A stretch of 43,489 bases of DNA from a virus. Lineage: Duplodnaviria; Heunggongvirae; Uroviricota; Caudoviricetes. Below, one piece after another: positions 1 through 28,193 of the stretch; within the stretch, counting starts at the first letter, position 1, and every line of letters begins with the position of its first letter. The notes beneath the pieces were generated by a model. The model worked only from the letters and a program-made list of their open reading frames with translations, was not told the DNA's origin and did not search any database. The stretch lies in the IMG/VR virus record IMGVR_UViG_2529292723_000011. One strand, 5' to 3'. Position numbers and translations under genes: made by a program.

Positions 1-744
<744 letters not shown>

Positions 745-942
745 TTTCTTTCCTCTGTTATGCCATCACCCGCGCTCACCTGGACAGTATGCAGCGGAGA
801 CTGAAGCGCCGCAATGCAGGCTTGCCGTGTTGTGAGGGAAGGAGATTTTGGCTTGGTTGGATCTTTACGTGTTGCCTGTAGGCGGCCTGTTCGTATCCAG
901 TTGGTGGCGGTTGGTCTGGATATCTTAAGAAACTGACAGGCC

Positions 943-1221
943 TCATCGAGTGTGAGGCTGTATGATTCCATGGTTACCTCTGCTTTTTGAACGCATGTCA
1001 CGTAACTTCTTAATGTGTTCTGCCGTTTCGATCTCTTCTGCTATCCGATCTGCATCAGCTTTATTCACAGGTTCAAAGTCATGATTAAAGCGGAACATGC
1101 TGGCGATACATGTTCTGCCTTTTCGGATGTAGTGAACTTTGTTGTGGGTAGAACGCAGGATTTTGCAGGGAGTGCCGTGGTGGTCGACGTACCAGGTGTT
1201 AGGAAAAATGATTCTGAACAT
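943..1221 (-). CDS. Hypothetical early-left protein (92 aa)
   Basis: ORF in compact co-directional operon between the TraR-like gene and xis; no family recognised. Confidence 0.4.
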   Translation of the reverse strand: MFRIIFPNTWYVDHHGTPCKILRSTHNKVHYIRKGRTCIASMFRFNHDFEPVNKADADRIAEEIETAEHIKKLRDMRSKSRGNHGIIQPHTR

Positions 1222-1268
1222 TTTTACACCTCAGTTGGACGATGTTGAAATTTGCTGCTTTGAGGCCA

Positions 1269-1487
1269 TCACAGTCCCCATTGTTTGTTCTTAAGTTCGA
1301 TCTCCTCCTGGCAACTTGCACAAGTCCGACAACCCTGAACAGCCAGGCGTCTTCGCTCATCTATCGGATCGCCACACTCACAACAATGAGTTGCGGATAC
1401 AGTCTGGTAGTTCAGACGACGCATTTTTATTGCTGTATTGCGCTGTAATTCTTCGATTTCTGATGCTGAATCAATGATGTCTGCCAT
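1269..1487 (-). CDS. TraR/DksA-family C4 zinc-finger protein
   Basis: 72 aa with paired Cys motifs CCECGDP...GCRTCASC typical of phage/plasmid TraR-like zinc fingers. Confidence 0.65.
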   Translation of the reverse strand: MADIIDSASEIEELQRNTAIKMRRLNYQTVSATHCCECGDPIDERRRLAVQGCRTCASCQEEIELKNKQWGL

Positions 1488-1585
1488 CTTCCATTAATCC
1501 CTGAATTGTTGGTTAATACGCTTGAGGATGAATGCGAACAATAAAAAAGGAGCCTGTAGCTCCCTGATGATTTTGCTTTTCATGT

Positions 1586-1900
1586 TCACCGTTCCTTAAA
1601 GACGCCGTTTAACATGCCGATCGCCAGGCTTAAATGAGTCGGTGTGAATCCCATCAGCGTTACCGTTTCGCGGTGCTTCTTTAGTACGCTACGGCAAATG
1701 TCATCGACGTTTTTATCCGGAAACTGCTGTCTGGCTTTTTTGATTTCAGAATTAGCCTGACGGGCAATGCTGCGAAGGGCGTTTTCCTGCTGAGGTGTCA
1801 TTGAACAAGTCCCATGTCGGCAAGCATAAGCACACAGAATATGAAGCCCGCTGCCAGAAAAATGCATTCCGTGGTTGTCATGCAGCCTCCCGACGGGCAA
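1586..1900 (-). CDS. Hypothetical protein (104 aa; true start may be internal)
   Basis: ORF co-directional with flanking early genes, overlapping the methyltransferase 3' end by 23 bp; no family recognised. Confidence 0.35.
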   Translation of the reverse strand: MPVGRLHDNHGMHFSGSGLHILCAYACRHGTCSMTPQQENALRSIARQANSEIKKARQQFPDKNVDDICRSVLKKHRETVTLMGFTPTHLSLAIGMLNGVFKER

Positions 1901-2435
1901 GAATCCTTGAGCCGAACGCCATCAACTCTCCACGATCAACAGTCGTAAAGTGGCAGTGTGTACGGGGGTATGGGTGCCAGATAATGAGCATCGAGCCTTT
2001 ATTATTTCCACTGACGGGTTTCTCAGTGAGTGGGTTAATAAATGCCAGTCGTCCTGCCGTGATGAATCTGACCTCACTGGCGGTTTGTATCGCTTCATGA
2101 AACCATCCGACAGATGTGTCAGCAGGCAATAACATTACACATCCCACACTACTGAATTTGTTTTCAGTGGCTGCCTTTTTCACAAAAGGGGAAATATTGC
2201 TGTATGGTGGATTCAACCAGACATAACCAGAGGCATATCCCATTGCTTCAGGCCATGAAGTGGTTAATGTGTTCTGCTCCTGTGAGATAAAAAGCCGACA
2301 TAGTCGGTTTTTTTCGCTGGCGGCAGCATCAAGTTGAAAAACGAACTCTGCATTAAGCGCAGCAAAAATCTCTGGTGGTGTGCGCCAGCTGTCGCGATGT
2401 TCGGCAGGAGTATTGCTTCCGGTGAAATCAGTCAT
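1878..2435 (-). CDS. Phage DNA N6-adenine methyltransferase (Dam-like)
   Basis: 185 aa containing the NPPY (DPPY-class) catalytic motif in ...YVWLNPPYSNISPF...; typical position in lambdoid early-left operons. Confidence 0.8.
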   Translation of the reverse strand: MTDFTGSNTPAEHRDSWRTPPEIFAALNAEFVFQLDAAASEKNRLCRLFISQEQNTLTTSWPEAMGYASGYVWLNPPYSNISPFVKKAATENKFSSVGCVMLLPADTSVGWFHEAIQTASEVRFITAGRLAFINPLTEKPVSGNNKGSMLIIWHPYPRTHCHFTTVDRGELMAFGSRILARREAA

Positions 2436-2589
2436 ACAGCCCCCGTTTATTATTTATCTCCTCAGCCAGCCGCTGTGCTTTCAGGGGATTTCGGATAACA
2501 GAAAGGCCGGGAAATACCCAGCCTCGCTTTGTAACGGAGTAGACGAAAGTGATCGTGCCTACCCGGATATTATCGTGAGGATGCTTCAT
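2428..2589 (-). CDS. Small hypothetical protein (53 aa), below the ORF-track size cutoff
   Basis: Hand translation of the minus strand: ATG at 2589-2587 gives [53 protein letters not shown], stop at 2428-2430. GGGGAG lies about 9 nt upstream; start overlaps the exo stop (ATGA) and the stop overlaps the methyltransferase start. Confidence 0.35.
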
Positions 2590-3266
2590 CGCCATTGCTC
2601 CCCAAATGCAAAACCAATTTCAGCCAGTGCCTCGTCCATTTTTTCGATGAACTCCGGCACCATCTCGTCAAAACTCGCCATGTACTTTTCATCCCGCTCA
2701 ACCACGACATAATGCAGGCCTTCACGCTTCATACGCGGGTCATAGTTGGCAAAGTACCAGGCATCTTTTCGCGTCACCCACATGCTGTACTGCACCTGGG
2801 CCATGTAAGCCGACTTTATGGCCTCGAAACCCCCGAGCCGGAACTTCATGAAATCCCGGGAGGTAAACGGGCATTTCAGCTCAAGGCCATTGCCGTCACT
2901 GCATAAACCATCGGGAGAGCAGGCGGTGCGCATACTTTCGTCGCGATAGATGATCGGGGATTCAATAACATTTACGCCGGAAGTGAACTCAAACAGGGTT
3001 CTGGCGTCGTTCTCGTACTGTTTTCCCCAGGCCAGCGCTTTAGCGTTAACTTCCGGAGCCACACCGGTGCAAACCTCAGCCAGCAGGGTGTGGAAGTAGG
3101 ACATTTTCATGTCAGGCCACTTCTTTCCTGATCGGGGCTTTGCTATCACGTTGTGAACTTCTGAAGCGGTGATGACGCCGAGCCGTAATTTGTGCCATGC
3201 ATCATCCCCCTGTTCGACAGCTCTCACGTCGATCCCGGTACGCTGCAGGATAATGTCCGGTGTCAT
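2586..3266 (-). CDS. exo: Lambda exonuclease (Red alpha), 226 aa
   Basis: [54 protein letters not shown]... is near-identical to lambda Exo as recalled. Confidence 0.95.
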
Positions 3267-4048
3267 GCTGCCACCTTCTGCTCAGTGGCTTTCTGTTTCA
3301 GGAATCCAAGAGCTTTCACTGCTTCGGCCTGTGTCAGTTCTGACGATGCGCGAATGTCGCGGCGAAATATCTGGGAACAGAGCGGCAATAAGTCGTCATC
3401 CCATGTTTTATCCAGGGCAATCAGCAGAGTGTTAATCTCCTGCATGGTTTCATCGTTAACCGGAGTGATGTCGCGTTCCGGCTGACGTTCTGCAGTGTAT
3501 GCGGTATTTTCGACAATGCGCTCGGCTTCATCCTTGTCATAGATACCAGCAAATCCGAAGGCGAGACGGGCACACTGAATCATGGCTTTATGCCGTAACA
3601 TCCGTTTGGGATGCGACTGCCACGGCCCCGTGATTTCTCTGCCTTCGCGGGTTTTGAATGGTTCGCGGCGGCATTCATCCATCCACTCGGTAACGCAGAT
3701 CGGATGATTGCGGTCTTTGCGGTAAATCCGGCATGTGCAGGATTCGTTGTCCTGTTCAAAGTCCATGCCGTCAAACTGCTGGTTTTCGTTGATGATGCGG
3801 GACCAGCCATCAACGCCCACCACCGGAACGATGCCGTTCTGCTTATCGGGGAAGGCGTAAATTTCTTTCGTCCACGGATTAAGGCCGTACTGGTTGGCGA
3901 CGATCAACAATGCGATGAACTGCGCATCGCTGGCATCACCTTTAAATGCCGTCTGGCGAAGAGTGGTGATCAGTTCCTGTGGGTCGACAGAATCCATGCC
4001 GACACGTTCAGCCAGCTTCCCAGCCAGCGTTGCGAGTGCAGTACTCAT
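3263..4048 (-). CDS. bet: Lambda Bet (Red beta) single-strand annealing protein, 261 aa
   Basis: [66 protein letters not shown]... matches lambda Bet; start overlaps exo. Confidence 0.95.
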
Positions 4049-4053
4049 TCGTT

Positions 4054-4350
4054 TTATACCTCTGAATCAATATCAACCTGGTGGTGAGCAATGGTTTCAA
4101 CCATGTACTGGATGTGTTCTGCCATGCGCTCCTGAAACTCAACATCGTCATCAAACGCACGGGTAATGGCTTTTTTGCTGGCCCCGTGGCGTTGCAAATG
4201 ATCGATGCATAGCGATTCAAACAGGTGCTGGGGCAGGCCTTTTTCCATGTCGTCTGCCAGTTCTGCCTCTTTCTCTTCACGGGCGATCTGCTGGTAGTGA
4301 CGCGCCCAGCTCTGAGCCTCAAGACGATCCTGAATGTAATAAGCGTTCAT
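4054..4350 (-). CDS. gam: Gam, RecBCD inhibitor (98-aa short form)
   Basis: [60 protein letters not shown]... matches the lambda Gam core. Confidence 0.9.
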
Positions 4351-4425
4351 GGCTGAACTCCTGAAAATGGCTGTGAAAAAATCGCCCGCGGAATGCCAGG
4401 CTGATTCGGAAAACAGGAAAGGGGA

Positions 4426-4716
4426 TTAGTGATTCAGACCGTTGCCGCGTCCGTCGAGAAAAACTTCCACGAGCAAGTCACGGGTATAAGTGCGCTCAAT
4501 GCCGCGATGCAGATAAAGTCGTCCGCGTAAATTAGCTGATGCAGTCCAGGTACCATCTTTGCGTTTGACCAGCATTCCTGGCATGACCGCACCGCGATTA
4601 ACGGTCTGCGTTCCGTAATGTTGATGAACCATAAAAACTCCTGCCCGTAAGCTGGGCTGCTGAACATATAAAGACTTCTGCGCGTATTCAGGCGGTGGAT
4701 GGCCGCCGGTTGTCAT
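4426..4716 (-). CDS. Hypothetical protein (96 aa), first gene leftward of the putative pL/OL region (lambda N position)
   Basis: ORF with GAGGCGG about 7 nt upstream of the start; no arginine-rich N-like motif; function not recognised. An overlapping 77-aa alternative frame (4434-4667) has a poorer start context. Confidence 0.35.
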   Translation of the reverse strand: MTTGGHPPPEYAQKSLYVQQPSLRAGVFMVHQHYGTQTVNRGAVMPGMLVKRKDGTWTASANLRGRLYLHRGIERTYTRDLLVEVFLDGRGNGLNH

Positions 4717-4899
4717 AACTAAGCCGCCTCGTTGAAGCGACTAAGGTATGAAATGTTGAGTTGATTTCAGCTGGTCACACCGACGTTCACGCGTCCGTTT
4801 CATCCCTCGCACTCCCCGAAGCCTGCTGAAATTCAAGCTGCGGATCTAAGCGGTCATCGCAACGGTGAATCAGGTAGTTGCCGTATCGTTGTGTTGTTG

Positions 4900-4990
4900 C
4901 GATGAACTTATTTAAAACTATAGTTGTTTTATCGTCAACAACAAAAGTTGTTTTATTGGTTGTTTTAGATATAACTGGTTGTATTTAGGA
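4900..4990 (-). promoter_or_regulatory. Putative OL/pL operator-promoter region
   Basis: AT-rich block with palindromes AACAACaaaaGTTGTT and AAAACTATAGTTGTTTT sharing the GTTGTT/AACAAC half-site with the cI-cro intergenic region; lies between the terminator of the 287-aa gene and the leftward early genes. Confidence 0.4.
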
Positions 4991-5075
4991 TGGATTTATT
5001 TTGTGACTTGCATCGCACAGCGATAACTGAAGCGAGGTCGTGGTGGTTTTTTGAACGGTTTGTGTGATGAGGGGA

Positions 5076-5105
5076 GGCAAAAGAAAACCCGGCACGACGG
5101 CCGGG
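5076..5105 (-). terminator. Rho-independent terminator immediately after the 287-aa gene
   Basis: Minus-strand reading CCCGGC-cgtcgt-GCCGGG followed by TTTTCTTTT, starting 5 nt after the stop codon at 5110-5112. Confidence 0.6.
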
Positions 5106-5109
5106 GAAA

Positions 5110-5973
5110 TCATTTCGCATCTACAATAAATAACCTGTTTATCTGGCCTTTTTTAACAGTAGCCTTTGCGGTTATAGTGAATACTGCAGATGGATCACCT
5201 TTGGTTGATATATATGCACTAAGAGCTCTAATATACGGGTTATTCTTCTTTCCTGCAGCTGGATCGCTAATTTCAGCAGTGATTCTCTTTTTTGAGTCAT
5301 CACCATCTAAAATTATTTTAGCTGTCATATTTTGTGCATCAAATTCTGTAAGAAAAGCACGATACTCACGAAGACCGAGAACTTCATCATCATCAAGCCT
5401 ATCAATTTCAGCTTTATCTCTCTCGTTAACTTTTAGAAGGCAGCCGTCAACATTTGTTGCAACACTTATCTGATCGCAAGTATTACCAATAGGTGATACT
5501 GCCTGCCTTACAGAGGGGCGAAGCTCTACAGCCATTCGGTCAATCAAAGAGATCAACTTATCAATGGTTCCAGCATCCTTGTTTCCTAGTGCCTCTATGG
5601 CCTTTTCAAGTGACTGCTGCAAAGCTTTCATTTCATCTTTCTTGTTAGAATTTCTCGCAAAAATATATTGTAGTATTGCGCCAAGTATAGTTGCGGCGAT
5701 CCCCGAGAACAACTGGTTCTGAGTGGCGAAGTTAAGAACTGCTTCAAGAGTAAAGCAGTTAGCTTTTGCTTCGCGTGCGTAAACCTTAACTTCCTGATAA
5801 TTAATGTATTTACTATATTTTTGTGTAACAGAGAAAGAAGCTGCTGTTGAGAGAACTTTAGAAAAACCCTTTAGGGATTCTCCTAGGCAGTTCAAATCTA
5901 TTTCATGATTTAAAGCATCTTTTCCGTCATACCTAAGAGAGATTTTTATATCCTGTAAAGCGTCACAATCCAT
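5110..5973 (-). CDS. Protein of unknown function (287 aa) in the Rex-equivalent position downstream of cI; candidate superinfection-exclusion or abortive-infection factor
   Basis: Start 67 bp after the cI stop on the same strand, with GAGAG upstream; visibly AT-rich relative to flanks; contains a hydrophobic stretch [19 protein letters not shown]; no similarity to RexA/RexB/SieB as recalled. Confidence 0.6.
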
Positions 5974-6039
5974 AAATCGCTCTCGTCTAATTCTAATTAA
6001 ATTTACTATCCCCTAAACGACTCATCAGCACAGTACTGA

Positions 6040-6729
6040 TTATCCATGTTTCCTGTACGTCTGGGGCATGCTCCCAATAACCTTACCGAAGATGAACACC
6101 CGGTTCATCTCGTCTTTCTCGATCGGGTCCCACGGTGAGTAGCTCTTGTTATCAGAGATAACCAGCAGCTTATCCTTCATCATTTGCAGGCGCTTTACAT
6201 GGGCTGTGTCGTCGTACAGAAACGCATAGATACCATCACCGTCGAAAGATTTAACCGTGATATCAACGAACAGCAGATCCCCTGGTTCGATCGTTCCTGA
6301 CATGCTGTCACCACGCACGTTAATGATGCGGATATTTTCCGCCTTCCTACCATCGAACATGTGACGAGCATCGTCAAACGAGTACTCAACCGAGCGTAGA
6401 ACTTCTACAAACTCACGGTTGATGACTCCCGGCCCAGCACTGACTTCTATATCAAGAACGTCAATCTTGAAGTATTTGGAATGGCTGACAGTTGATTGTA
6501 TTGGTTGCACTGTACTGTCTGACATATTTCCAACGCCAGAAGATAACCATTCTGCGCGCACACCCAAAGCGTTCGCGATCTCCACGATTTTAGTTGTTTG
6601 ATTAGCTTTCCCTGTTTCGATTTTCTGAATAGCAGCCTGGCTAACCCCGACCAAATCCCCAAGCGCCTTTTGTGTAAGGCCTCGCGCTAATCTGGCTTCT
6701 TTAAGTCTTTCTGAGAGTGTTGTTTTCAT
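6040..6729 (-). CDS. cI: CI-like prophage repressor (HTH_XRE N-domain plus LexA/S24-type autocleavage C-domain); start taken at MKTTLSERL (track ORF extends to 6795)
   Basis: N-terminal LTQKALGDLVGVSQAAIQKIETGK helix-turn-helix; Ala-Gly cleavage-site candidate in EVSAGPG; GDSM serine and VKRL lysine motifs of the S24 peptidase fold; divergent from the cro-like gene. Confidence 0.85.
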   Translation of the reverse strand: MKTTLSERLKEARLARGLTQKALGDLVGVSQAAIQKIETGKANQTTKIVEIANALGVRAEWLSSGVGNMSDSTVQPIQSTVSHSKYFKIDVLDIEVSAGPGVINREFVEVLRSVEYSFDDARHMFDGRKAENIRIINVRGDSMSGTIEPGDLLFVDITVKSFDGDGIYAFLYDDTAHVKRLQMMKDKLLVISDNKSYSPWDPIEKDEMNRVFIFGKVIGSMPQTYRKHG

Positions 6730-6833
6730 AGTCCAAATGTACAACCAAGGTTTTATTCCATCAAACGAAAATGGTTGTTGACTAAAAACAACCATAGTTT
6801 TAATCTTGATTCAAATTAACCACGGAGGTTGTT
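6730..6833. promoter_or_regulatory. Putative OR/pRM/pR divergent operator-promoter region
   Basis: 104-bp intergenic between divergent cI and cro; contains the 25-bp palindrome ATGGTTGTTgactaaaAACAACCAT (6771-6795) and AACCAAGGTT; GGAGG RBS before cro. Confidence 0.6.
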
Positions 6834-7064
6834 ATGAACCCAGCTATCAAAACAGCGATCAATATCGTTGGTTCACAAAAGAAACTGGGCGCTGCTTGCG
6901 AAGTTTCACAGCAGGCCGTCTATAAGTGGCTTCACAACAAAGCAAAGGTATCCCCTGAACATGTCGGCAGCATTGTTACGGCTACTGGTGGAGTAGTGAA
7001 GGCATACCAGATTCGCCCGGATCTTCCGAAGTTGTTTCCACACACCGAAAAGAACGCAGCTTAA
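6834..7064 (+). CDS. cro: Cro-like HTH regulator (76 aa)
   Basis: Divergent from cI; HTH segment QKKLGAACEVSQQAVYKWL. Confidence 0.75.
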   Translation: MNPAIKTAINIVGSQKKLGAACEVSQQAVYKWLHNKAKVSPEHVGSIVTATGGVVKAYQIRPDLPKLFPHTEKNAA

Positions 7065-7133
7065 ATTTCCATTTCACGCTCTTTAACAATAAGCAATCAA
7101 CTTAACAGTCAATTCAAACTAAAGGAGTCAATT

Positions 7134-7673
7134 ATGCAACCACTTACATACCAACAGACTAGCGGATTTAGCCCGACTGCGGTGATAAATCGTTCTCAAA
7201 CAAAACAGGTGCCAGACCACGAAAAAATCCGTGATGCCGTCCGCGCCTGGTCGGCTGTAGATAATCAGGATGTCGTTGCCGCACTCATTGTGAATGAGTA
7301 TCGGGAGCAGGGCGACGGCACCATCGATTTCCCTGATGATGTCAGCCGTGCACGCCAGAAGCTGTTCCGCTTCCTCGATAACAAATTCGATTCTGAAAAA
7401 TACCGAAATAACGTGCGTGAACTGACCCCGGCAATTCTGGCGGTACTACCGCTGGAATATCGCGGTTACCTGGTTGAGCAGGATAGCTTCATGACTCGGC
7501 TGGCTGAAATGGAAAAGGAACTCAGTGAGGCAAAACAGGCTGTCATTCTCAACGCACCACGCCACCAGAAACTGAAGGAAATTAGTGAAGGTATTGTGTC
7601 GATGTTTCGTGTGGACCCGGATCTGGCTGGTCCATTGATGGCGATGGTTACCACCATGTTGGGGGCAATATGA
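7134..7673 (+). CDS. Putative CII-like lysogeny regulator (179 aa; family assignment uncertain)
   Basis: Position between cro and O where cII sits in lambdoid phages; longer than lambda CII, possibly the CP-933-type CII family; stop overlaps the O start (ATGA). Confidence 0.45.
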   Translation: MQPLTYQQTSGFSPTAVINRSQTKQVPDHEKIRDAVRAWSAVDNQDVVAALIVNEYREQGDGTIDFPDDVSRARQKLFRFLDNKFDSEKYRNNVRELTPAILAVLPLEYRGYLVEQDSFMTRLAEMEKELSEAKQAVILNAPRHQKLKEISEGIVSMFRVDPDLAGPLMAMVTTMLGAI

Positions 7674-8689
7674 CAGGCTCAGAAATGGCGAAAGCCGGTC
7701 TGCGGGAACAGAGCCGACTTTCAGGCGCAAATCGTAACGCACTCATTGCGGGAGGAATTATGGCAAACACTGCTGAGATATTCAATTTTCCAGTGCCGGA
7801 TGTGGCACAAAAGGAGCCGCGCGTGGCAGATCTCGATGATGGTTATACGCGCATTGCAAATGAGTTGCTGGAAGCTGTGATGCTGGCCGGATTAACACAG
7901 CACCAGCTTCTGGTCTTCCTGGCTGTCATGCGCAAAACATATGGCTTTAATAAAAAACTGGATTGGGTGAGCAACGAGCAACTTTCCGAATTGACCGGGA
8001 TATTGCCGCACAAGTGTTCTGCTGCAAAAAGCGTTCTGGTAAAGCGTGGGATTCTTATTCAGAGCGGGCGGAATACCGGCATTAATAATGTGGTCAGTGA
8101 ATGGTCAACATTACCCGAATCAGGTAAGAAAAATAAAGTTTACCTGAAAGAGGTAAATTTACCTGAATCAGGTAAAAAAAGTTTACCCAAATCAGGTAAA
8201 GACGTTTACCCGAATCAGGTAAACACAAAAGACAAACTAACAAAAGACAATATAAAACCTTATTCGTCCGAGAATTCTGGCGAATCCTCTGACCAGCCAG
8301 AAAACGACCTTCCTGTGGTGAAACCGGATGCTGCGATTCAGAGCGGCAGCAAGTGGGGGACAGCAGAAGACCTGACCGCCGCAGAGTGGATGTTTGACAT
8401 GGTGAAGACCATCGCGCCATCAGCCAGAAAACCGAATTTTGCAGGGTGGGCTAACGATATCCGCCTGATGCGTGAACGTGACGGACGTAACCACCGCGAC
8501 ATGTGCGTGCTGTTCCGCTGGGCATGCCAGGACAACTTCTGGTCCGGTAACGTGCTAAGTCCGGCCAAACTCCGCGACAAGTGGACCCAGCTCGAAATCA
8601 ACCGTAACAAGCAACAGGCAGGCGTGACAGCCAGCAAACCAAAACTCGACCTGACAAACACAGACTGGATTTACGGGGTTGATCTATGA
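7670..8689 (+). CDS. O: Replication initiator O (lambda O-like); start may instead be the internal MANTAEIFNF at 7760
   Basis: ...VADLDDGYTRIANELLEAVMLAGLTQHQLLVFLAVMRKTYGFNKKLDWVSNEQLSELTG... matches the lambda O N-terminal domain; iterons and AT-rich spacer lie inside the gene as in ori-lambda. Confidence 0.9.
   Translation: MTGSEMAKAGLREQSRLSGANRNALIAGGIMANTAEIFNFPVPDVAQKEPRVADLDDGYTRIANELLEAVMLAGLTQHQLLVFLAVMRKTYGFNKKLDWVSNEQLSELTGILPHKCSAAKSVLVKRGILIQSGRNTGINNVVSEWSTLPESGKKNKVYLKEVNLPESGKKSLPKSGKDVYPNQVNTKDKLTKDNIKPYSSENSGESSDQPENDLPVVKPDAAIQSGSKWGTAEDLTAAEWMFDMVKTIAPSARKPNFAGWANDIRLMRERDGRNHRDMCVLFRWACQDNFWSGNVLSPAKLRDKWTQLEINRNKQQAGVTASKPKLDLTNTDWIYGVDL
8111..8222 (+). repeat. ori iterons: five direct copies of about 17 bp, TTACC(C/T)(G/A)AA(T/A)(C/G)AGGTAA, followed by an AT-rich stretch (8223-8262)
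   Basis: Copies at 8111, 8140, 8159, 8183 and 8206, each an internal inverted repeat TTACC..GGTAA; within the O linker region as in lambda. Confidence 0.85.
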
Positions 8690-9408
8690 AAAACATCGCC
8701 GCACAGATGATTAACTTTGACCGTGAGCAGATGCGTCGGATCGCCAACAACATGCCGGAACAGTACGACGAAAAGCCGCAGGTACAGCAGGTAGCGCAGA
8801 TTATCAATGGTGTGTTCAGCCAGTTACTGGCAACTTTCCCGGCGAGCCTGGCTAACCGGGACCAGAACGAACTGAACGAAATCCGCCGCCAGTGGGTGCT
8901 GGCTTTCCGGGAAAACGGGATCGCCACAATGGAACAGGTTAACGCAGGAATGCGCGTAGCCCGTCGGCAGAATCGACCATTTCTGCCATCACCCGGGCAG
9001 TTTGTTGCATGGTGCCGGGAAGAAGCATCCGTTACCGCCGGGCTGCCAAACGTCAGCGAGCTGGTTGATATGGTTTACGAGTATTGCCGGAAGCGTGGCC
9101 TGTATCCGGACGCAGAGTCTTATCCATGGAAATCAAACGCGCACTACTGGTTGGTTACCAACCTGTACCAGAATATGCGGGCCAATGCGTTGACTGACTC
9201 GGAATTACGGCGCAAGGCTGCCGATGAACTTGCCCATATGACTGCGAGAATTAACCGTGGTGAGGCGATTCCCGAGCCAGTTAAACAGCTTCCGGTTATT
9301 GGTGGTAAGCCGCTATCCCGTATACAAGGATTGGCAAAGTTGGCTGAGATTCGCGAGAAGCACGGACTGAGAAGACGTAAACAATTAACGGGAGTGAAGC
9401 TAACCTGA
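8686..9408 (+). CDS. P: Replication protein P (DnaB helicase loader), 240 aa
   Basis: MKNIAAQMINFDREQMRRIANNMPEQYDEKPQVQQVAQIINGVFSQLLATFPASLANRDQNE... is near-identical to lambda P over most of its length; the C-terminal tail differs. Confidence 0.9.
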   Translation: MKNIAAQMINFDREQMRRIANNMPEQYDEKPQVQQVAQIINGVFSQLLATFPASLANRDQNELNEIRRQWVLAFRENGIATMEQVNAGMRVARRQNRPFLPSPGQFVAWCREEASVTAGLPNVSELVDMVYEYCRKRGLYPDAESYPWKSNAHYWLVTNLYQNMRANALTDSELRRKAADELAHMTARINRGEAIPEPVKQLPVIGGKPLSRIQGLAKLAEIREKHGLRRRKQLTGVKLT

Positions 9409-9753: not shown

Positions 9754-10722
9754 TTATTCAATTAACGGTACTTGTTTGTTGCAGAATACTAATATTGCAT
9801 CTTGAGTAAGTTTTTTATGCATATGCTTTAGCGGCTCAATGTTAGTCTCGTAACCGAAAGTAGCGAAAAGAGTTGGTTCTATAATGAAATTTTCTTCATA
9901 AGCTTTTAGATCAAATGCTCTCTTTGCAATTAATCTAACTGCTTTCTTTCTAATGCGTGAATTATATCTATTCTCTATGCTAAGTTTAGCCATGTTTTCA
10001 TCGATGTTGTTTTTTTGTTTTTTTAGTATAATTTGAATGTGATCATCATCAATTTGGCCATCTCTATATATATAATCAATGTCATAATTAAAATCAAAAA
10101 GCTGAGTGTCATTTACACCTTCAAGAAAAGGATTTGAAAATGGGCTCATGATCGGATCGAGTGATTTTTTATAAGTACTATTGCATTTAGTGCAGCTAGG
10201 AATTAAGTTAAATAAACTAAAGGAGATCAACGGATATTTGTACTTAGGTATGAAATGATCAAATGCTGGCCTGTAGCTAGTACCTGTATGGTCTTCTACT
10301 TGTTCAATTTCTTCACTGTTGCAATATGGGCATATGCTAATGTCTAAAAAACTGTTCAATTGATACGCTGTTTCTCTATCAATAAGTGAGTATTTAAATA
10401 TTTCAGAAATATTTTTAACCCATGATGGAAATAACTTAATGGTATTTTCCTTTAAAGGACCACCATTCTTGATACTTATAAGATTAAGAATCTTATCTCT
10501 TAAACTAGATAATTTTTGTGGTGAGAAATGTGTATTTAATATATCCTCAAGTATTAGGCTTTGTGTAGTTTGAGAGAAAGATGTGATTATTTTGATGGCA
10601 TGTGCTAGTTCATTATAAACTATTTTTTTGTTTTCTTTTGTTTTTAAAGGTAATTGTAGGTTTGTTAATGGTTGTAAATTTAAGTGCCTTAAAAAATAAT
10701 CAGGAGAATAGTACTCACACAC
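9754..10722 (-). CDS. HNH (His-Me finger) motif protein, 322 aa; putative nuclease effector of a two-gene ATPase plus HNH module (Septu PtuB-like)
   Basis: Motif ICPYCNSEE...FDHFIPKYKYP...NLIPSCTKCNSTYK (CxxC, DH, N, CxxC); AT-rich; co-directional downstream of the ATPase. The only available start is GTG at 10720-10722 with a weak RBS. Confidence 0.7.
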   Translation of the reverse strand: MCEYYSPDYFLRHLNLQPLTNLQLPLKTKENKKIVYNELAHAIKIITSFSQTTQSLILEDILNTHFSPQKLSSLRDKILNLISIKNGGPLKENTIKLFPSWVKNISEIFKYSLIDRETAYQLNSFLDISICPYCNSEEIEQVEDHTGTSYRPAFDHFIPKYKYPLISFSLFNLIPSCTKCNSTYKKSLDPIMSPFSNPFLEGVNDTQLFDFNYDIDYIYRDGQIDDDHIQIILKKQKNNIDENMAKLSIENRYNSRIRKKAVRLIAKRAFDLKAYEENFIIEPTLFATFGYETNIEPLKHMHKKLTQDAILVFCNKQVPLIE

Positions 10723-10784
10723 AATTGGGTGTTTGTTGTATATTTTGATGATTATATTTTTTAATCGTTTGGGTTTTGAAAAAA

Positions 10785-10946
10785 CTAATTTTCTGATAGT
10801 TTTTTGTTGATTGTATTTAGAAACTCTACTTCATCGGGAGTAATGTTCAGTAACTTCCTCTGCTTCACGCGTTTATTAACTTTGCTTACTATTTTAGAAA
10901 AGGATATTTTTACATCAACATTGAAGTCTTTGTTTATTTTTATCAT
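10785..10946 (-). CDS. Small basic ORF (53 aa) between the ATPase and HNH genes; possible third component or a displaced N-terminus of the HNH protein
   Basis: Hand translation: ATG 10 nt after the ATPase stop gives MIKINKDFNVDVKISFSKIVSKVNKRVKQRKLLNITPDEVEFLNTINKKLSEN; below the ORF-track cutoff; different frame from the HNH ORF. Confidence 0.3.
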   Translation of the reverse strand: MIKINKDFNVDVKISFSKIVSKVNKRVKQRKLLNITPDEVEFLNTINKKLSEN

Positions 10947-10955
10947 TTTTTTTAC

Positions 10956-12743
10956 TCATTTCTCAAAAGAATCTGTTTTATCATTGTTTTTGTTTAACTT
11001 CAGATCAATAAGATTTATGAGAAGTTTATTTTTAATTTGTGATAGTATGGTTTTTTGATGTTTATTTAAATTACCGTCATCTGAGTTTTTTATTATTGAG
11101 TTTAGATAATTATGTGCGTGCTGTCCTATTGTAGCATCAATAAAAAAACCATTTATATATAATTCTGATATGGTTGCTCCGAAACCAAACTCTACTTTCT
11201 TAGTATAGGTTCCTTGATTATGATCTCTTTCAAGATATATTATATCTGATGGCAAAAAATCACTTGCGAGTATAGGGGAGTGAGTTGTAAATACTAATTG
11301 AATATTTTTACTTTGTTTATATCTTAATGTTAAATCTATAATTTCTGAAAAAATAACTCGTTGCCATTCAGGGTGTAGATATAAATCACACTCATCTAAT
11401 AATATTATAATATTTTTGCTGTTGCTATGTTCTATAGAATCATAAAGTTGATTGAAAAGGTTTAATTTTGCAAACTCTCCTGAACTAAGTGAATCCCAAC
11501 CATACTTAAATCGCGATGATACGCCATTTGGTAACCTATCAACTAATCTTATTAACTCCATAATCTGCTTTGGTTCTTCAACTGTGAAAGATAAACTATC
11601 AACTGGGTCTCTTGCTGTGTTTTCTAATATATCAGCTATATTACCTATAATGTCGGAGATATGTTCAGATAACATTTCTATTTTTGACTGAAATTTAACA
11701 TTAACGTTAAATTCATCTAAAGTCTCTAATATAGTTTTTGCTGGATCTTTTTCTTCAAGATACGCGCGACACAAGCAAAATAAATAAACAGTCTCACATA
11801 TGTCTTTAGGGATTTTTGATGTCTTGAGTAAATGCCATGTTATTGCAGGCAAAAGCATCAAGTAAATTATTTTGTGATATGAAAAGGTTGCGAGGAAATT
11901 TAATGATCTTTCTTTGTTAAAAATAATGCTAATAATAAAATCTTCATCGTAATCTATCCCATGATTGAGTATATCCACAAGTGAAATACCTAAAGAATCT
12001 AAATCACGTTCAATATATCTAGGGAGTTTATTGTTTTTAATTCTATCATTCAACGTATCAAAAAAGTATTCAATAGCTCCAAAAAGTCCTTTGTCACCAA
12101 TATCATTGTTTTTTATAATAGAATTTATTTTATATACTGGTGAGTTTTCTATTTCAAATTGAAATTTAGTATTAAGTCTTGATAAATTGTCTTTAGCCCA
12201 TGAACTGTGGTCTGAAAATGAAATTAATTGCTTGAGTAATTTCTTATTGCGTGTTTTACTGCCTTGCAAAAAATATGACAGTGATAAATCTTTAGAAATC
12301 GAATCGTTTTTTTTCTTTTTTTGTCCAACTAACATACTTTTGAGGTCGATTGTGTTATTTATCTTTATTAGATTGATTTTGTTTCTTCTAAAAAAATGTT
12401 CATTATTATCAATTAGTTCCGTTTGCATTTTGGATAATATTACAGGAGGTTTGCAATTGCTTGTGATAATTATAAGTTTATCATTTTCATTCCAGATGCT
12501 ATAACCGCTACCTTCAAAATCGTAAATAAAGCTACTAATGAAATCTAAAATTGATGACTTTCCAACACCATTTTTCCCTAAAATTAATGTACAGGGAATA
12601 TTGCTATAATAGTCACGACTTAAATCTTTCTTAGCAATTGTAAGGACGTTACCTTTATGGCTAAAGGTAAATTTACTTGAGGTGGGGAGGGACAGCTTAT
12701 TTAAACCTTTATAATTGTGGATATAAGTGTATATTAGTTCCAT
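10956..12743 (-). CDS. ABC/AAA_15-21-type ATPase, 595 aa; putative sensor/ATPase subunit (Septu PtuA-like)
   Basis: Walker A LILGKNGVGKSSILDF near the N-terminus; signature-like LSSGEF; Walker B IIILLDECDLYLHP; H-loop FTTHSP; very AT-rich; 520-bp AT-rich upstream leader (12744-13265). Confidence 0.8.
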   Translation of the reverse strand: MELIYTYIHNYKGLNKLSLPTSSKFTFSHKGNVLTIAKKDLSRDYYSNIPCTLILGKNGVGKSSILDFISSFIYDFEGSGYSIWNENDKLIIITSNCKPPVILSKMQTELIDNNEHFFRRNKINLIKINNTIDLKSMLVGQKKKKNDSISKDLSLSYFLQGSKTRNKKLLKQLISFSDHSSWAKDNLSRLNTKFQFEIENSPVYKINSIIKNNDIGDKGLFGAIEYFFDTLNDRIKNNKLPRYIERDLDSLGISLVDILNHGIDYDEDFIISIIFNKERSLNFLATFSYHKIIYLMLLPAITWHLLKTSKIPKDICETVYLFCLCRAYLEEKDPAKTILETLDEFNVNVKFQSKIEMLSEHISDIIGNIADILENTARDPVDSLSFTVEEPKQIMELIRLVDRLPNGVSSRFKYGWDSLSSGEFAKLNLFNQLYDSIEHSNSKNIIILLDECDLYLHPEWQRVIFSEIIDLTLRYKQSKNIQLVFTTHSPILASDFLPSDIIYLERDHNQGTYTKKVEFGFGATISELYINGFFIDATIGQHAHNYLNSIIKNSDDGNLNKHQKTILSQIKNKLLINLIDLKLNKNNDKTDSFEK

Positions 12744-19985: not shown

Positions 19986-23666
<3,681 letters not shown>

Positions 23667-23686
<20 letters not shown>

Positions 23687-24548
23687 TCTCCCGCATATTG
23701 CCAGCATGGCTTTTAATGAGCCGCTGATGCTTGAACCCGCCTATGCGCGGGTTTTCTTTTGTGCGCTTGCAGGCCAGCTTGGGATCAGCCGCCTGACGGA
23801 TGCGGTGTCCGGTGACAGCCTGACTGCCCAGGAGACACTCGCGCCGCTGGCGTTATCCGGTGATGATGACGGACCACGACAGGCCCGCAGTTATCAGGTC
23901 ATGAACGGCATCGCCGTGCTGTCGGTGTCCGGCACGCTGGTCAGCCGGACGCGGGCGCTGCAGCCGTATTCGGGAATGACCGGTTACAACGGCATTATCG
24001 CCCGTCTGCAACAGGCTGCCAGCGATCCGATGGTGGACGGCATTCTGCTCGATATGGACACACCGGGCGGGATGGTGGCGGGAGCATTTGACTGTGCTGA
24101 CATCATCGCCCGTGTGCGAGACATAAAACCGGTATGGGCGCTGGCCAACGACATGAACTGCAGTGCAGGTCAGCTGCTTGCCAGCGCCGCCTCCCGGCGT
24201 CTGGTCACGCAGACCGCCCGGACAGGCTCCATCGGCGTCATGATGGCTCACAGTAATTACGGTGCTGCCCTGGAGAAACAGGGCGTGGAAATCACGCTGA
24301 TTTACAGCGGCAGCCATAAGGTGGATGGCAATCCTTACAGCCATCTTCCGGATGACGTCCGGGAGACACTGCAGTCCCGGATGGACGCAACCCGCCGGAT
24401 GTTTGCGCAGAAGGTGTCGGCATATACCGGCCTGTCTGTGCAGGCTGTGCTGGATACCGAGGCTGCAGTGTACAGCGGTCAGGAGGCCATTGATGCCGGA
24501 CTGGCTGATGAACTTGTAACAGCACCGATGCGATCACCGTATGCGTGA
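23667..24548 (+). CDS. C: Prohead protease/scaffold C, N-terminal 293 codons only (GTG start); frame breaks before the Nu3-equivalent part
   Basis: VTAELRNLPHIASMAFNEPLMLEPAYARVFFCALAGQ... matches lambda C; reading frame ends at 24546-24548, whereas lambda C continues in frame through Nu3. Confidence 0.8.
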
Positions 24549-24587
24549 TGCACTGGATGCACTAAATCCCGTCTCTCAGGAGGGCGA

Positions 24588-24985
24588 ATGACCAAAGAGA
24601 CTCAATCAACAACTGTTTCAGCCACTGCTTCGCAGGCTGACGTTACTGAGTGGTGCCAGCGACGGAGGGCGAAAACGCCAGCGCGGCGCAGCCGGACGTG
24701 AACGCGCAGATCACCGCAGCGGTTGCGGCAGAAAACAGCCGCATTATGGGGATCCTCAACTGTGAGGAGGCTCACGGACGCGAAGAACAGGCATGCGTGC
24801 TGGCCGAAACCCCCGGTATGACCGTGGAAACGGCCCGCCGCATTCTGGCTGCAGCACCACAGAGTGCACAGGCGCGCAGTGACACTGCGCTGGATCGTCT
24901 GATGCAGGGGGCACCGGCACCGCTGGCTGCAGGTAACCCGGCATCTGATGCCGTTAACGATTTGCTGAACACACCAGTGTAAGGG
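24588..24985 (+). pseudogene. nu3: C-terminal (Nu3-equivalent) part of C in shifted frames: MTKETQSTTVSATASQADVT... in frame 0, then ...VPATEGENASAAQPDVNAQ... in frame 2 (ORF 24650-24982)
   Basis: The two ORF-track pieces are in different frames (start positions differ mod 3), and the downstream genes sit 4 bp short of the lambda offset, indicating several single-base deletions between about 24515 and 24650. Confidence 0.6.
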
Positions 24986-24991
24986 ATGTTT

Positions 24992-25324
24992 ATGACGAGC
25001 AAAGAAACCTTTACCCATTACCAGCCGCTGGGCAACAGTGACCCGGCTCATACCGCAACCGCGCCCGGCGGGTTGAGTGCGAAAGCGCCTGCAATGACCC
25101 CGCTGATGCTGGACACCTCCACCCGTAAGCTGGTTGCGTGGGATGGCACCACCGACGGTGCTGCCGTTGGCATTCTGGCGGTTGCTGCTGACCAGACCAG
25201 CACCACACTGACGTTCTACAAGTCCGGCTCGTTCCGTTATGAGGATGTGCTCTGGCCGGAGGCTGCCAGCGACGAGACTAAAAAACGGACCGCGTTTGCC
25301 GGAACGGCAATCAGCATCGTTTAA
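24992..25324 (+). CDS. D: Head decoration protein D
   Basis: [43 protein letters not shown]... matches lambda gpD. Confidence 0.9.
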
Positions 25325-25379
25325 TCTTCCCCTTCATCAACAAAGGCCGCCTGTGCGGCTTTTTTTATGGAAATAATTT

Positions 25380-26405
25380 ATGTCGATGTACACAACCGCC
25401 CAGCTGCTGGCGGCAAATGAGCAGAAATTTAAGTTTGATCCGCTGTTTCTGCGTCTCTTTTTCCGTGAGAGCTATCCCTTCACCACGGAGAAAGTCTATC
25501 TCTCACAAATTCCTGGACTGGTAAACATGGCGCTGTACGTTTCGCCAATTGTTTCCGGTGAGGTTATCCGTTCCCGTGGCGGCTCCACCTCTGAATTTAC
25601 GCCGGGTTATGTCAAGCCGAAGCATGAGGTGAATCCGCAGATGACCCTGCGTCGCCTGCCGGATGAAGATCCGCAGAATCTGGCGGACCCGGCTTACCGC
25701 CGCCGTCGCATCATCCTGCAGAACATGCGTGACGAAGAGCTGGCCATTGCTCAGGTCGAAGAGATGCAGGCAGTTTCTGCCGTGCTCAAGGGCAAATACA
25801 CCATGACCGGTGAAGCCTTCGATCCGGTTGAGGTGGATATGGGCCGCAGTGCGGCGAACAACATCACGCAGTCCGGCGGCACGGAGTGGAGCAAGCGTGA
25901 CAAGTCCACGTATGACCCGACCGACGATATCGAAGCCTACGCGCTGAACGCCAGCGGCGTGGTGAATATCATCGTGTTTGACCCGAAAGGCTGGGCGCTG
26001 TTCCGTTCCTTCAAAGCCGTCAAGGAGAAGCTGGATACCCGTCGCGGCTCTCATTCCGAGCTGGAGACAGCGGTAAAAGACCTGGGCGAAGCGGTGTCCT
26101 ATAAGGGGATGTATGGCGATACGGCGATCGTCGTGTATTCCGGACAGTACGTGGAAAACGACGTCAAAAAGAACTTCCTGCCGGACAACACGATGGTGCT
26201 GGGGAACACTCAGGCACGCGGTCTGCGCACCTATGGCTGCATTCAGGATGCGGACGCACAGCGCGAAGGCATTAACGCCTCTGCCCGCTACCCGAAAAAC
26301 TGGGTGACCACCGGCGATCCGGCGCGTGAGTTCACCATGATTCAGTCAGCACCGCTGATGCTGCTGGCTGATCCTGATGCGTTCGTGTCCGTACAACTGG
26401 CGTAA
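25380..26405 (+). CDS. E: Major capsid protein E (341 aa)
   Basis: MSMYTTAQLLAANEQKFKFDPLFLRLFFRESYPFTTEKVYLSQIPGLVNMALYVSPIVSGEVIRSRGG... matches lambda gpE. Confidence 0.95.
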   Translation: MSMYTTAQLLAANEQKFKFDPLFLRLFFRESYPFTTEKVYLSQIPGLVNMALYVSPIVSGEVIRSRGGSTSEFTPGYVKPKHEVNPQMTLRRLPDEDPQNLADPAYRRRRIILQNMRDEELAIAQVEEMQAVSAVLKGKYTMTGEAFDPVEVDMGRSAANNITQSGGTEWSKRDKSTYDPTDDIEAYALNASGVVNIIVFDPKGWALFRSFKAVKEKLDTRRGSHSELETAVKDLGEAVSYKGMYGDTAIVVYSGQYVENDVKKNFLPDNTMVLGNTQARGLRTYGCIQDADAQREGINASARYPKNWVTTGDPAREFTMIQSAPLMLLADPDAFVSVQLA

Positions 26406-26446
26406 TCATGGCCCTTCGGGGCCATTTTCTCTCTGTGGAGGAGTCC

Positions 26447-26842
26447 ATGACGAAAGATGAACTGATTGCCCGTCTTCAGGTGCTGGGTGAGCAACTGAAC
26501 CGTGATGTCAGCCTGACGGGGACGAAAGAAGAACTGGTGCTCCGTGTGGCAGAGCTGGAAGAGGAGCTTGATGACACGGATGACGCTGCCGGTCAGGACA
26601 CATCTGTCAGCCCGGAAAATGCGCTGACCGGACATGAAAATGAGGTGGTATCAGCGCAGCCGGATACCGTGATTGATACGGCTGCTCTGGTCACGGTCGT
26701 GGCACTGGTGACGCTGCATACTGATGCACTTCACGCCACGCGGGATGAGCCTGTGGCATTTGTGCTGCCGGGAACGGCGTTTCGTGTCTCTGCCGGTGTG
26801 GCAGCCGAAATGACAGAACATGGCCTGGCCAGAATGCAATAA
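26447..26842 (+). CDS. FI: DNA-packaging protein FI
   Basis: MTKDELIARLQVLGEQLNRDVSLTGTKEELVLRVAELEEELDDTDD... matches lambda FI. Confidence 0.85.
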   Translation: MTKDELIARLQVLGEQLNRDVSLTGTKEELVLRVAELEEELDDTDDAAGQDTSVSPENALTGHENEVVSAQPDTVIDTAALVTVVALVTLHTDALHATRDEPVAFVLPGTAFRVSAGVAAEMTEHGLARMQ

Positions 26843-26853
26843 CGGGAGGCGCT

Positions 26854-27204
26854 GTGGCTGATTCGATAACCTGTTCGATGCTGCCATTGCCCGCGCGATG
26901 AAACGATACGCGGGTACATGGGAACGTCAGCCACCATGACATCCGGTGAGCGTCCGGTGCTGTGATACGTGGTGTTTTTGATGACCCTGAAAATATCAGC
27001 TATGCCGGACAGGGCGTGCGCGTTGAAGGCTCCAGCCCGTCCCTGTTTGTCCGGACTGATGAGGTGCGGCAGCTGCGGCGTGGAGACACGCTGACCATCG
27101 GTGAGGAAAACTTCTGGATAGACCGGGTTTCGCCGGATGATGGCGGAAGCTGTCATCTCTGGCTTGGGCGTGGCGTGCCGCCTGCCGTTAACCGTCGCCG
27201 CTGA
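26854..27204 (+). pseudogene. FII: Head-tail connector FII, frame-disrupted at the N-terminus; only the C-terminal 80 codons (26962-27204) are in one frame
   Basis: From the GTG at 26854 the frame reads MADSITCSMLPLPAR then stops; the ORF-track piece MIRGVFDDPENISYAGQGVRVEGSSPSLFVRTDEVRQLRRGD... matches the lambda FII C-terminus. Confidence 0.7.
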
Positions 27205-27215
27205 AAGGGGGATGT

Positions 27216-28186: not shown

Positions 28187-28193
28187 GGACGAT

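What the first reader, a model, noticed from the sequence alone, without database searches (positions are those of the whole stretch)
10723..10955. Unannotated 53-aa ORF between the ATPase and the HNH gene, and an HNH gene with no ATG start
The 233-bp gap contains a hand-found ORF (MIKINKDFNVDVKISFSKIVSKVNKRVKQRKLLNITPDEVEFLNTINKKLSEN) starting 10 nt after the ATPase stop. The HNH ORF has no ATG before the nuclease motif and can only start at a GTG with a weak RBS. Either the system has a small basic third component, or the small ORF is the true N-terminus of the HNH protein separated by a frameshift, which would fit the indel pattern seen elsewhere in this window.
Basis: seen in the sequence. 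Interest (0 to 1): 0.5.

Follow-up and report, generated by a model that had tools for sequence, protein, structure and literature searches.

The report
Frameshifted HNH nuclease gene, not third gene
The small ORF is the cut-off front end of the neighbouring HNH nuclease gene, split by loss of one A in a run of seven, so this prophage-borne Septu-like defence pair most likely carries a broken nuclease; this is ordinary gene decay, not a new component.

Summary
On the minus strand a 595-aa ATPase (10956-12743) is followed 9 nt later by a 53-aa ORF (10785-10946). Then comes a 322-aa HNH ORF (9754-10722) whose only canonical start is a GTG with no Shine-Dalgarno sequence.

Three near-identical E. 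coli prophages encode one 397-aa protein that starts MIKINKDFNV. The only relevant difference is A7 there against A6 in the window (10800-10805).

Homologues in eight other enterobacterial genera, down to 43% identity, are all 396-400 aa. More distant relatives (Enterovibrio, Pseudomonas) also align from residue 1. Each follows its ATPase directly, and no small third gene occurs anywhere. Residues 54-75, which lie in the window's "gap", are the best-conserved part outside the HNH core.

The A6 allele is real. It occurs in three complete genomes, in draft assemblies and in an assembly of a public read set, all with identical cassettes, so it is one clonal mutation.

The pair matches the untested PADLOC candidate system PDC-M62, a Septu-like ATPase plus a long PtuB-like HNH. 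The nuclease gene here is most likely a recent pseudogene that RefSeq annotates as an intact 322-aa protein. Low-level slippage that restores the protein is not excluded but has no support.

The parts
10956..12743 (-). Intact 595-aa ABC/SMC-type ATPase (PDC-M62A; distantly PtuA-like), first gene of the two-gene cassette
   Evidence: ORF. PADLOC PDC-M62A E=4e-44 over residues 1-570. Pfam AAA_21 and AAA_15. Weak C-terminal matches to solved PtuA chains. Same length as the ATPase in the intact loci.
10947..10955 (-). 9-nt ATPase-HNH spacer (gtaaaaaaa). With the A of the ATG it forms an A8 run, 10946-10953
   Evidence: Homologous loci have a 6-48 nt gap or a 14-17 nt overlap here. A 401-aa variant (P0123, MSKKMIKIN...) implies A7 here, which would put an ATGA-overlapping start in frame (inferred from the protein, DNA not read).
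10785..10946 (-). 53-aa ORF: true start codon and codons 1-49 of the ancestral ~397-aa HNH gene, then 4 out-of-frame codons (LSEN) and TAG
   Evidence: Identical to residues 1-49 of the 397-aa protein of AR_0077, TW10828 and EC38. The N-terminus MI.IN...FSKIV...ELEFL..INKK is conserved across genera.
10800..10805 (-). A6 tract (T6 on the + strand): site of the 1-nt deletion. A7 in all intact copies, encoding Lys-Lys-Thr (AAA AAA ACx)
   Evidence: Alignments. A7 is also present in Serratia, Morganella and Pantoea genes.
10723..10799 (-). Former codons ~51-75 of the HNH gene (IRKLVFSKPKRLKNIIIKIYNKHPI). Still open in the HNH frame (open from 10830) but with no canonical start, so presumably untranslated
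   Evidence: Translations. Residues 54-75 are 64-91% identical in the 12 enterobacterial homologues of 57-84% overall identity, the best-conserved stretch after the HNH core.
9754..10722 (-). Remaining 322 codons of the HNH gene (ancestral residues 76-397), annotated in RefSeq as WP_001702985.1. HNH/zinc motif CPYCN...DHFIPK...NLIPSCTKCN at about 10180-10332

Best explanation
The 233-bp 'gap' is not intergenic. It is the first 75 codons of a single ~397-aa HNH nuclease gene, the second gene of a two-gene ATPase-plus-HNH cassette. The cassette matches the PADLOC candidate PDC-M62, a Septu-like system with an unusually long PtuB-like nuclease. It sits between replication gene P and the nin-region genes of a DLP12-site lambdoid prophage.

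In this window one A has been lost from an A7 tract (now A6, 10800-10805). Translation from the real ATG at 10946, which starts 9 nt after the ATPase stop, therefore terminates after 53 residues. The remaining 322 codons have no ATG, no Shine-Dalgarno sequence and only a GTG.

Shown: the deletion, the intact one-piece gene in sister strains and other genera, and the clonal spread of the deletion. Inferred: the nuclease is not made in functional form, because at least residues 50-75 are lost. At best a protein lacking four helices of a confidently predicted N-terminal helical domain could be made. The cassette would then be a recently inactivated defence system whose ATPase is still intact.

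By analogy with Septu and retron type I-A PtuAB, the intact system would work as an ATPase oligomer that holds and licenses the HNH nuclease, which cuts nucleic acid (phage DNA or tRNA) on infection. That step is analogy only and was not tested.
For: 1. One-base difference. Window, ETEC-2264 and 90-9280 have A6. AR_0077, TW10828, EC38 and two draft assemblies have A7 and a continuous 397-aa ORF beginning MIKINKDFNV.
2. Homologues in Serratia, Morganella, Enterobacter, Citrobacter, Pantoea, Atlantibacter and Ewingella (84 to 43% identity) are 396-400 aa at 99-100% query coverage. Pseudomonas genes at 26% identity align from query residue 1.
3. The N-terminus is conserved as protein. M1 and L62 are invariant. 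Residues 54-75 are 64-91% identical in the 12 enterobacterial homologues of 57-84% overall identity.
4. With the full-length protein, PADLOC profile PDLC04741 (PDC-M62B) aligns residues 1-347 to profile positions 1-323 of 401.
5. In other genera the ATPase is followed directly by the ~400-aa gene, with no small ORF.
6. The AF2 model gives residues 1-200 as a helical domain with block pLDDT 73-97 (83 or more from residue 11). Helices 10-31, 37-45, 48-56 and 59-72 lie upstream of the GTG.
7. The A6 allele is real. The 53-aa product is indexed in 43 blocks of the collection, including drafts AQDG01 and SONB01 and the Logan assembly of SRR446715. All five A6 loci compared match the window without a mismatch; 90-9280 adds only its own 1-nt ATPase insertion.
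8. Against TW10828 the indel is the only gap in 19.7 kb at 99.97% identity, and no other change has accumulated in the cassette, so the event is recent.
Against: No expression data exist. A GTG-initiated 322-aa protein, or rare -1 slippage at C-AAA-AAA followed by the rare CUA codon, could still give some nuclease; slippage would recreate exactly the wild-type sequence INKK|TIRKL. The role of the N-terminal helical domain is unknown, so loss of function is inferred, not shown. The window's own source assembly is not among the complete genomes searched and shows suspicious single-base gaps elsewhere, so for this one sequence a read error cannot be excluded formally. The identical allele in other assemblies makes that unnecessary. 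Anti-phage activity of PDC-M62 has not been demonstrated in any paper I could find.
Confidence: 0.9

Rival explanations
1. Regulated recoding or phase variation. The A6/A7 tract would act as a switch, either by slipped-strand mutation between ON (A7) and OFF (A6), or by low-level -1 ribosomal or transcriptional slippage on A6 that produces small amounts of full-length, potentially toxic nuclease.
For: Both tract lengths occur in closely related ETEC prophages: TW10828 has A7 and E2980 has A6, with about 5 SNPs in 20 kb. A -1 shift on the tract would give exactly the ancestral protein, and the next 0-frame codon is CUA, which is rare in E. coli by general knowledge. Other homopolymer indels occur in the same cassette: A8 to A9 in the ATPase of 90-9280, and T7 to T6 in draft GCA_036456945.
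Against: All A6 copies share an identical cassette, so this is a single event and not recurrent switching. No other genus has a split gene. The heptamer C-AAA-AAA does not fully satisfy X-XXY-YYZ. There is no downstream RNA structure (MFE -8 kcal/mol, z = -1.1) and no SD-like stimulator. By general knowledge, tracts of 6-7 are short for contingency loci and for efficient transcriptional slippage. The cassette has 22 homopolymers of 6 or more bases simply because it is AT-rich.
Confidence: 0.05
2. Three-component system. The 53-aa basic peptide is a genuine small third protein, for example an adaptor or antitoxin, and the HNH protein starts at the GTG.
For: The ORF has an ATG placed 9 nt after the ATPase stop and is lysine-rich. 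Some GenBank submitters annotate it as a CDS.
Against: It matches no family. Its sequence is residues 1-49 of the full-length HNH protein. No homologous locus has a separate small gene. Its last 4 residues and its stop exist only because of the deletion. The GTG has no RBS, and conserved residues 50-75 would be left untranslated.
Confidence: 0.02
3. Sequencing or assembly artefact. The gene is intact (A7) in the real genome and A6 is a homopolymer miscall.
For: The window has seven unexplained single-base gaps in its head-gene region relative to its best matches. Long-read assemblies tend to undercall homopolymers (general knowledge).
Against: The same A6 allele, with an otherwise identical cassette, is present in three complete genomes from different laboratories, in two draft assemblies and in a Logan assembly of SRR446715. 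The left 20 kb of the window has no indel at all against E2980.
Confidence: 0.03

Closest known systems
PADLOC phage-defence candidate PDC-M62 (PDC-M62A ATPase + PDC-M62B HNH)
   Same: Both proteins are best hits to these HMMs (A: 4e-44 over the full length; B: 1.6e-33, and profile PDLC04741 aligned from position 1 with the repaired protein). Two adjacent co-oriented genes, ATPase first.
   Different: In this window the B gene is frameshifted. PDC-M62 is itself an unpublished, unvalidated candidate. In Bacillus cereus genomes most PDC-M62 calls coincide with DefenseFinder 'Septu' calls (PMC11811056).
Septu (PtuA ATPase + PtuB HNH) and the PtuAB effector module of type I-A retrons (Ec78/Eco7, Ec83)
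   Different: The HNH protein is ~397 aa against ~210-230 aa for PtuB. It has an extra ~200-residue N-terminal helical domain with no specific structural match. NCBIfam PtuA scores 48.5 bits against a cut-off of 500. No retron RT or ncRNA is adjacent. The substrate (DNA or tRNA-Tyr, as reported for Septu and Retron-Eco7 in PMC13096335 and PMC12673091) is unknown here.
Homopolymer-frameshift pseudogenes in decaying prophages
   Same: A single-base loss in a short A tract inside an AT-rich accessory gene of a defective prophage (integrase interrupted by IS100). It is clonal and recent, and other isolates carry independent homopolymer indels in the same cassette.
   Different: Nothing unusual. 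The only twist is that RefSeq annotates the remnant as an intact 322-aa protein and applies that short model even to contigs where the gene is intact.

Membership tests
PDC-M62 (PADLOC candidate system) | Protein A matches a PDC-M62A HMM | tested here: met
   E = 4e-44, residues 1-570 to profile positions 1-548 of 597
PDC-M62 (PADLOC candidate system) | Protein B matches a PDC-M62B HMM | tested here: met
   Remnant: 3.5e-33. Repaired 397-aa protein: 1.6e-33, and PDLC04741 aligned 1-347 to 1-323 of 401
PDC-M62 (PADLOC candidate system) | The two genes are adjacent and co-oriented | tested here: met
   ATPase stop at 10956, HNH ATG at 10946, same strand
PDC-M62 (PADLOC candidate system) | Both genes intact | tested here: not met
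   B gene interrupted by the A7 to A6 deletion at 10800-10805
PDC-M62 (PADLOC candidate system) | Confers phage resistance | not testable with these tools
   No experimental paper found
Septu (PtuA/PtuB) | ATPase is a PtuA equivalog | tested here: not met
   NCBIfam NF041760 PtuA scores 48.5 bits against a cut-off of 500. PADLOC PtuA1 HMMs match only residues ~440-575
Septu (PtuA/PtuB) | Nuclease is a PtuB / TIGR02646-type HNH protein of ~215-250 aa | tested here: inconclusive
Septu (PtuA/PtuB) | ATPase-nuclease complex; nuclease activated on infection | not testable with these tools
   Needs biochemistry
Programmed -1 frameshift gene | Slippery heptamer X-XXY-YYZ in the 0 frame | tested here: inconclusive
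   C-AAA-AAA. The A-site codon can re-pair, but the P-site codon would shift to CAA, which mismatches at its first base
Programmed -1 frameshift gene | Downstream stimulatory RNA structure or upstream SD-like element | tested here: not met
   MFE -8 kcal/mol, z = -1.14 for the 86 nt from the tract's last A downstream (10715-10800)
Programmed -1 frameshift gene | Two-frame organisation conserved among homologues | tested here: not met
   All homologues are single ORFs of 396-401 aa
Phase-variable contingency locus | Repeated independent switching of tract length within lineages | tested here: not met
   All A6 copies have an identical cassette, consistent with one event. Population-level read data were not available

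The most novel reading that the evidence does not exclude
The A6/A7 tract in the conserved Lys-Lys-Thr codons could be a functional switch. It would work either by heritable phase variation or by low-level -1 slippage (P-site slip on A-AAA while the rare CUA codon waits). Expression of a toxic, long-form PtuB-like nuclease from a prophage defence cassette would thus be throttled, with the 53-aa product as a by-product.
Probability: 0.04. Interest if true: 0.5.

Novelty: already known. Interest (0 to 1): 0.12.

Why it matters
Scientifically it matters little. It is a recent single-base inactivation of an accessory prophage gene, and the intact protein is already in the databases (for example WP_004030156.1 and WP_104888908.1).

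There are three practical points.

1. WP_001702985.1 (322 aa) is a truncated gene model. It should be flagged as a frameshifted pseudogene, and it is currently applied even to contigs where the 397-aa ORF is intact.
2. Defence-system finders would count this locus as a complete PDC-M62/Septu-like system, although the nuclease is probably dead in this group of closely related ETEC strains.
3. The matched pair TW10828 (A7) and E2980 or ETEC-2264 (A6) is a natural near-isogenic control. Anyone wanting to test whether PDC-M62 defends against phage, and what the ~200-aa N-terminal helical domain of the long PtuB-like nuclease does, could use it.

Tried and rejected
- **Third-component idea.** Pfam and PADLOC scans of the 53-aa peptide gave nothing. 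Its 90% cluster holds only itself and an unrelated GC-rich 903-aa protein, which is a clustering artefact.
- **Counting A6 alleles from the 322-aa product.** This count (200 contigs) is unreliable, because A7 contigs L006 and L008 are also annotated with the 322-aa model. I used the 53-aa product instead.
- **Phage collection.** There is no close relative of the HNH protein in 50,697 phage records, only a 29% partial hit.
- **Species-representative genomes.** These gave only distant relatives at 45% identity or less (Pseudomonas, Pseudoalteromonas, Bacteroidota, Firmicutes). Close homologues had to be fetched by exact-protein look-up.
- **Promoter and terminator scan.** It found no more sites than in shuffled sequence and was uninformative.
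- **Link to the window's other indels.** This was rejected. Those indels are confined to a divergent head-gene segment and are a separate phenomenon.

Full report
**1. Observation**

The features below are on the minus strand of the window.

| Feature | Coordinates | Notes |
|---|---|---|
| ATPase ORF | 10956-12743 | 595 aa, stop TGA at 10956-10958 |
| Small ORF | 10785-10946 | 53 aa, sequence exactly as quoted, ATG 9 nt after the ATPase stop |
| HNH ORF | 9754-10722 | 322 aa, first canonical start is GTG at 10720-10722 |

The sequence just upstream of the GTG (acaaacacccaatt) has no Shine-Dalgarno-like purines. No in-frame ATG precedes the CPYCN...DH...N...CxxCN motif. The description of the 233-bp gap 10723-10955 is therefore accurate.

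**2. Context**

The three ORFs form an AT-rich cassette. It is inserted, in opposite orientation, between the lambdoid replication genes O and P (7670-9408) and ybcN/ninE/ybcO/rusA (13266 onward). In sister genomes the prophage sits at tRNA-Arg next to fimZ, the DLP12 site, and its integrase is interrupted by IS100.

- The ATPase is best matched by PADLOC PDC-M62A (E = 4e-44, full length) and by Pfam AAA_21 and AAA_15.
- The HNH ORF is best matched by PDC-M62B (E = 3.5e-33).
- PtuA and PtuB models of Septu give much weaker, partial matches.
- The 53-aa peptide matches nothing.

**3. The decisive comparison**

Only 6 of 5,426 complete E. coli genomes carry the cassette, all at 99.4% identity or more.

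| Strain | Tract | HNH gene as annotated |
|---|---|---|
| AR_0077 | A7 | one 1,194-nt CDS, 397 aa |
| TW10828 | A7 | one 1,194-nt CDS, 397 aa |
| EC38 | A7 | one 1,194-nt CDS, 397 aa |
| ETEC-2264 | A6 | split, 322-aa model |
| 90-9280 | A6 | split, 322-aa model |
| E2980 (LR882978) | A6 by inference | split, 322-aa model |

In the three A7 strains the gene starts 9 nt after the ATPase stop and begins MIKINKDFNVDVKISFSKIV..., which is the "small ORF". Base-by-base alignment places the difference in a homopolymer. Intact copies read ACAATCAAC-A7-CTATCAG, and the window reads A6 (10800-10805). For E2980 the tract itself was not read. A6 is inferred from its 322-aa annotation, its submitter's 53-aa CDS, and zero indels against the window across this region.

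With A7 the reading is ...INKK TIRKLVFSKPKRLKNIIIKIYNKHP(I/V)VCEYY.... With A6 the ORF runs into LSEN-stop. The downstream frame stays open from 10830 but has no canonical start until the GTG.

**4. Which state is ancestral?**

A search of 5.8 billion proteins with the 397-aa sequence found homologues in eight other enterobacterial genera, including Serratia, Morganella, Enterobacter, Citrobacter, Pantoea, Atlantibacter and Ewingella. They run from 84% down to 43% identity. All are 396-400 aa and cover 99-100% of the query. Enterovibrio, Pseudoalteromonas and Pseudomonas relatives at 22-30% identity also start at or near residue 1.

- In the alignment M1 and L62 are invariant.
- Residues 54-75, which lie in the window's "non-coding" gap, are 64-91% identical in the 12 enterobacterial homologues of 57-84% overall identity. 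That is second only to the HNH core.
- With the repaired protein, PADLOC profile PDLC04741 aligns from profile position 1.
- In the Serratia, Morganella, Pantoea, Ewingella and Enterovibrio loci the ATPase (561-602 aa where complete) is followed directly by the ~400-aa gene. The junction is a 6-48 nt gap or a 14-17 nt overlap, and there is no small ORF.
- The Pantoea copy even sits at the same prophage position, next to gene P.

The one-piece gene is therefore ancestral, and the window carries a 1-nt deletion. The A7 tract itself (AAA AAA ACx, Lys-Lys-Thr) is conserved in E. coli, Serratia, Morganella and Pantoea.

**5. Real mutation or sequencing error?**

The 53-aa product can exist only with A6. 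It is indexed in 43 blocks of the assembly collection. These include draft assemblies AQDG01 (GCA_000354755.2) and SONB01 (GCA_004523605.1) and a Logan assembly of run SRR446715. All five A6 loci compared match the window without a mismatch, and 90-9280 adds only its own 1-nt insertion in the ATPase. The allele is therefore real and has a single clonal origin.

- Against TW10828 (A7) the window shows 5 mismatches and exactly one gap, this one, in 19.7 kb.
- Against E2980 (A6) it shows 5 SNPs and no gap in 20 kb.
- The cassette has accumulated no further change since the deletion, so the event is recent.

One caution applies to counting. The count of the 322-aa product (200 contigs) overstates A6, because that short gene model is also annotated on A7 contigs L006 and L008.

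**6. Consequence**

An AlphaFold2 model built on the 16-sequence alignment has mean pLDDT 77. It predicts residues 1-200 as a helical domain with block pLDDT of 73-97 (83 or more from residue 11), followed by the HNH domain and a less confident C-terminal region. Four helices (10-31, 37-45, 48-56, 59-72) lie upstream of the GTG.

Even if both fragments were made, residues 50-75 would be missing. I infer, but have not shown, that the nuclease is non-functional in this allele. The ATPase remains intact.

**7. Mechanism of the intact system (by analogy, not tested)**

PDC-M62 is an unpublished PADLOC candidate. In Bacillus cereus genomes 203 PDC-M62 calls were duplicates of DefenseFinder Septu calls (PMC11811056). 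The closest solved relatives are PtuA and PtuB. In Septu and in Retron-Eco7 a PtuA ATPase and a PtuB HNH nuclease act together. Reported outcomes are cleavage of tRNA-Tyr and inhibition of phage replication (abstracts of PMC13096335 and PMC12673091).

The present pair probably works in the same general way. It is not a canonical Septu, however:

- NCBIfam PtuA scores 48.5 bits against a cut-off of 500.
- The nuclease is nearly twice the size of PtuB.

**8. Rivals**

- **Recoding or phase variation.** A -1 slip on the tract would restore the exact wild-type protein, and the next codon, CUA, is rare. However, the heptamer is C-AAA-AAA. There is no downstream structure (z = -1.1). No homologue is split. 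The allele arose once. I give this about 5%.
- **A true third gene.** About 2%.
- **A miscall in this particular assembly.** About 3%.

**9. Verdict**

The finding is an ordinary, recent homopolymer frameshift in the nuclease gene of a known candidate defence cassette. Its value is mainly as an annotation correction and as a natural near-isogenic pair for testing PDC-M62.

Noticed in passing
window ~24517, 24539, 24562, 24649 and ~26861, 26896, 26951: Seven isolated single-base gaps relative to the closest relatives, mostly not in homopolymers. The first four break the S49 head protease gene: window ORFs 23532-24548 and 24650-24982 replace one 443-aa CDS. The other three lie at or just upstream of the head-tail joining gene.
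   Followed up: partly
window ~20134-30100: The head-gene segment is only 97.5% identical to the DLP12-site prophage of sister strains. It best matches (98.9%) a second lambdoid prophage elsewhere in the same strains (ETEC-2264 1282764-1286571). This suggests recombination between resident prophages or a chimeric assembly. The window is therefore not simply a copy of ETEC-2264, although its cassette is 100% identical to that strain's.
   Followed up: partly
window ~12306-12315 (A8 run in the ATPase) and ~12396 (T7 run): Sister isolates carry independent homopolymer indels in the ATPase gene. Strain 90-9280 has A9, which splits the ATPase into 150 + 457 aa. Draft GCA_036456945 has T6, and no ATPase gene is called there. 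The cassette contains 22 homopolymers of 6 or more bases and seems to be hit repeatedly.
   Followed up: partly
L006 and L008 (GCA_036456945.1, GCA_021195895.1), gene at 3001-3969: These contigs have the intact A7 tract and an open 397-aa ORF, yet they are annotated with the 322-aa GTG-start protein. The truncated model WP_001702985.1 appears to be propagated onto intact genes.
   Followed up: yes
window 10946-10953 (A8 between the ATPase stop and the HNH ATG): A 401-aa variant (P0123, MSKKMIKIN..., 92 contigs) implies A7 here. That would put an ATG overlapping the ATPase stop (ATGA) in frame, so it would be another length-polymorphic A tract. This is inferred from the protein sequence only.
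   Followed up: no
window 1-347; L004 8669-9015; L044 from 10402: The window begins inside an IS100 (IS21-family) element that interrupts the prophage integrase. TW10828 has this IS in the opposite orientation relative to the window and E2980.
   Followed up: no
P0015 (487 aa, ENA metagenome contig of 2,124 nt): The first ~210 residues of the HNH protein are fused to an unrelated replication-type protein (Pfam PF25888, PF07261). This is probably a chimeric metagenome contig.
   Followed up: no
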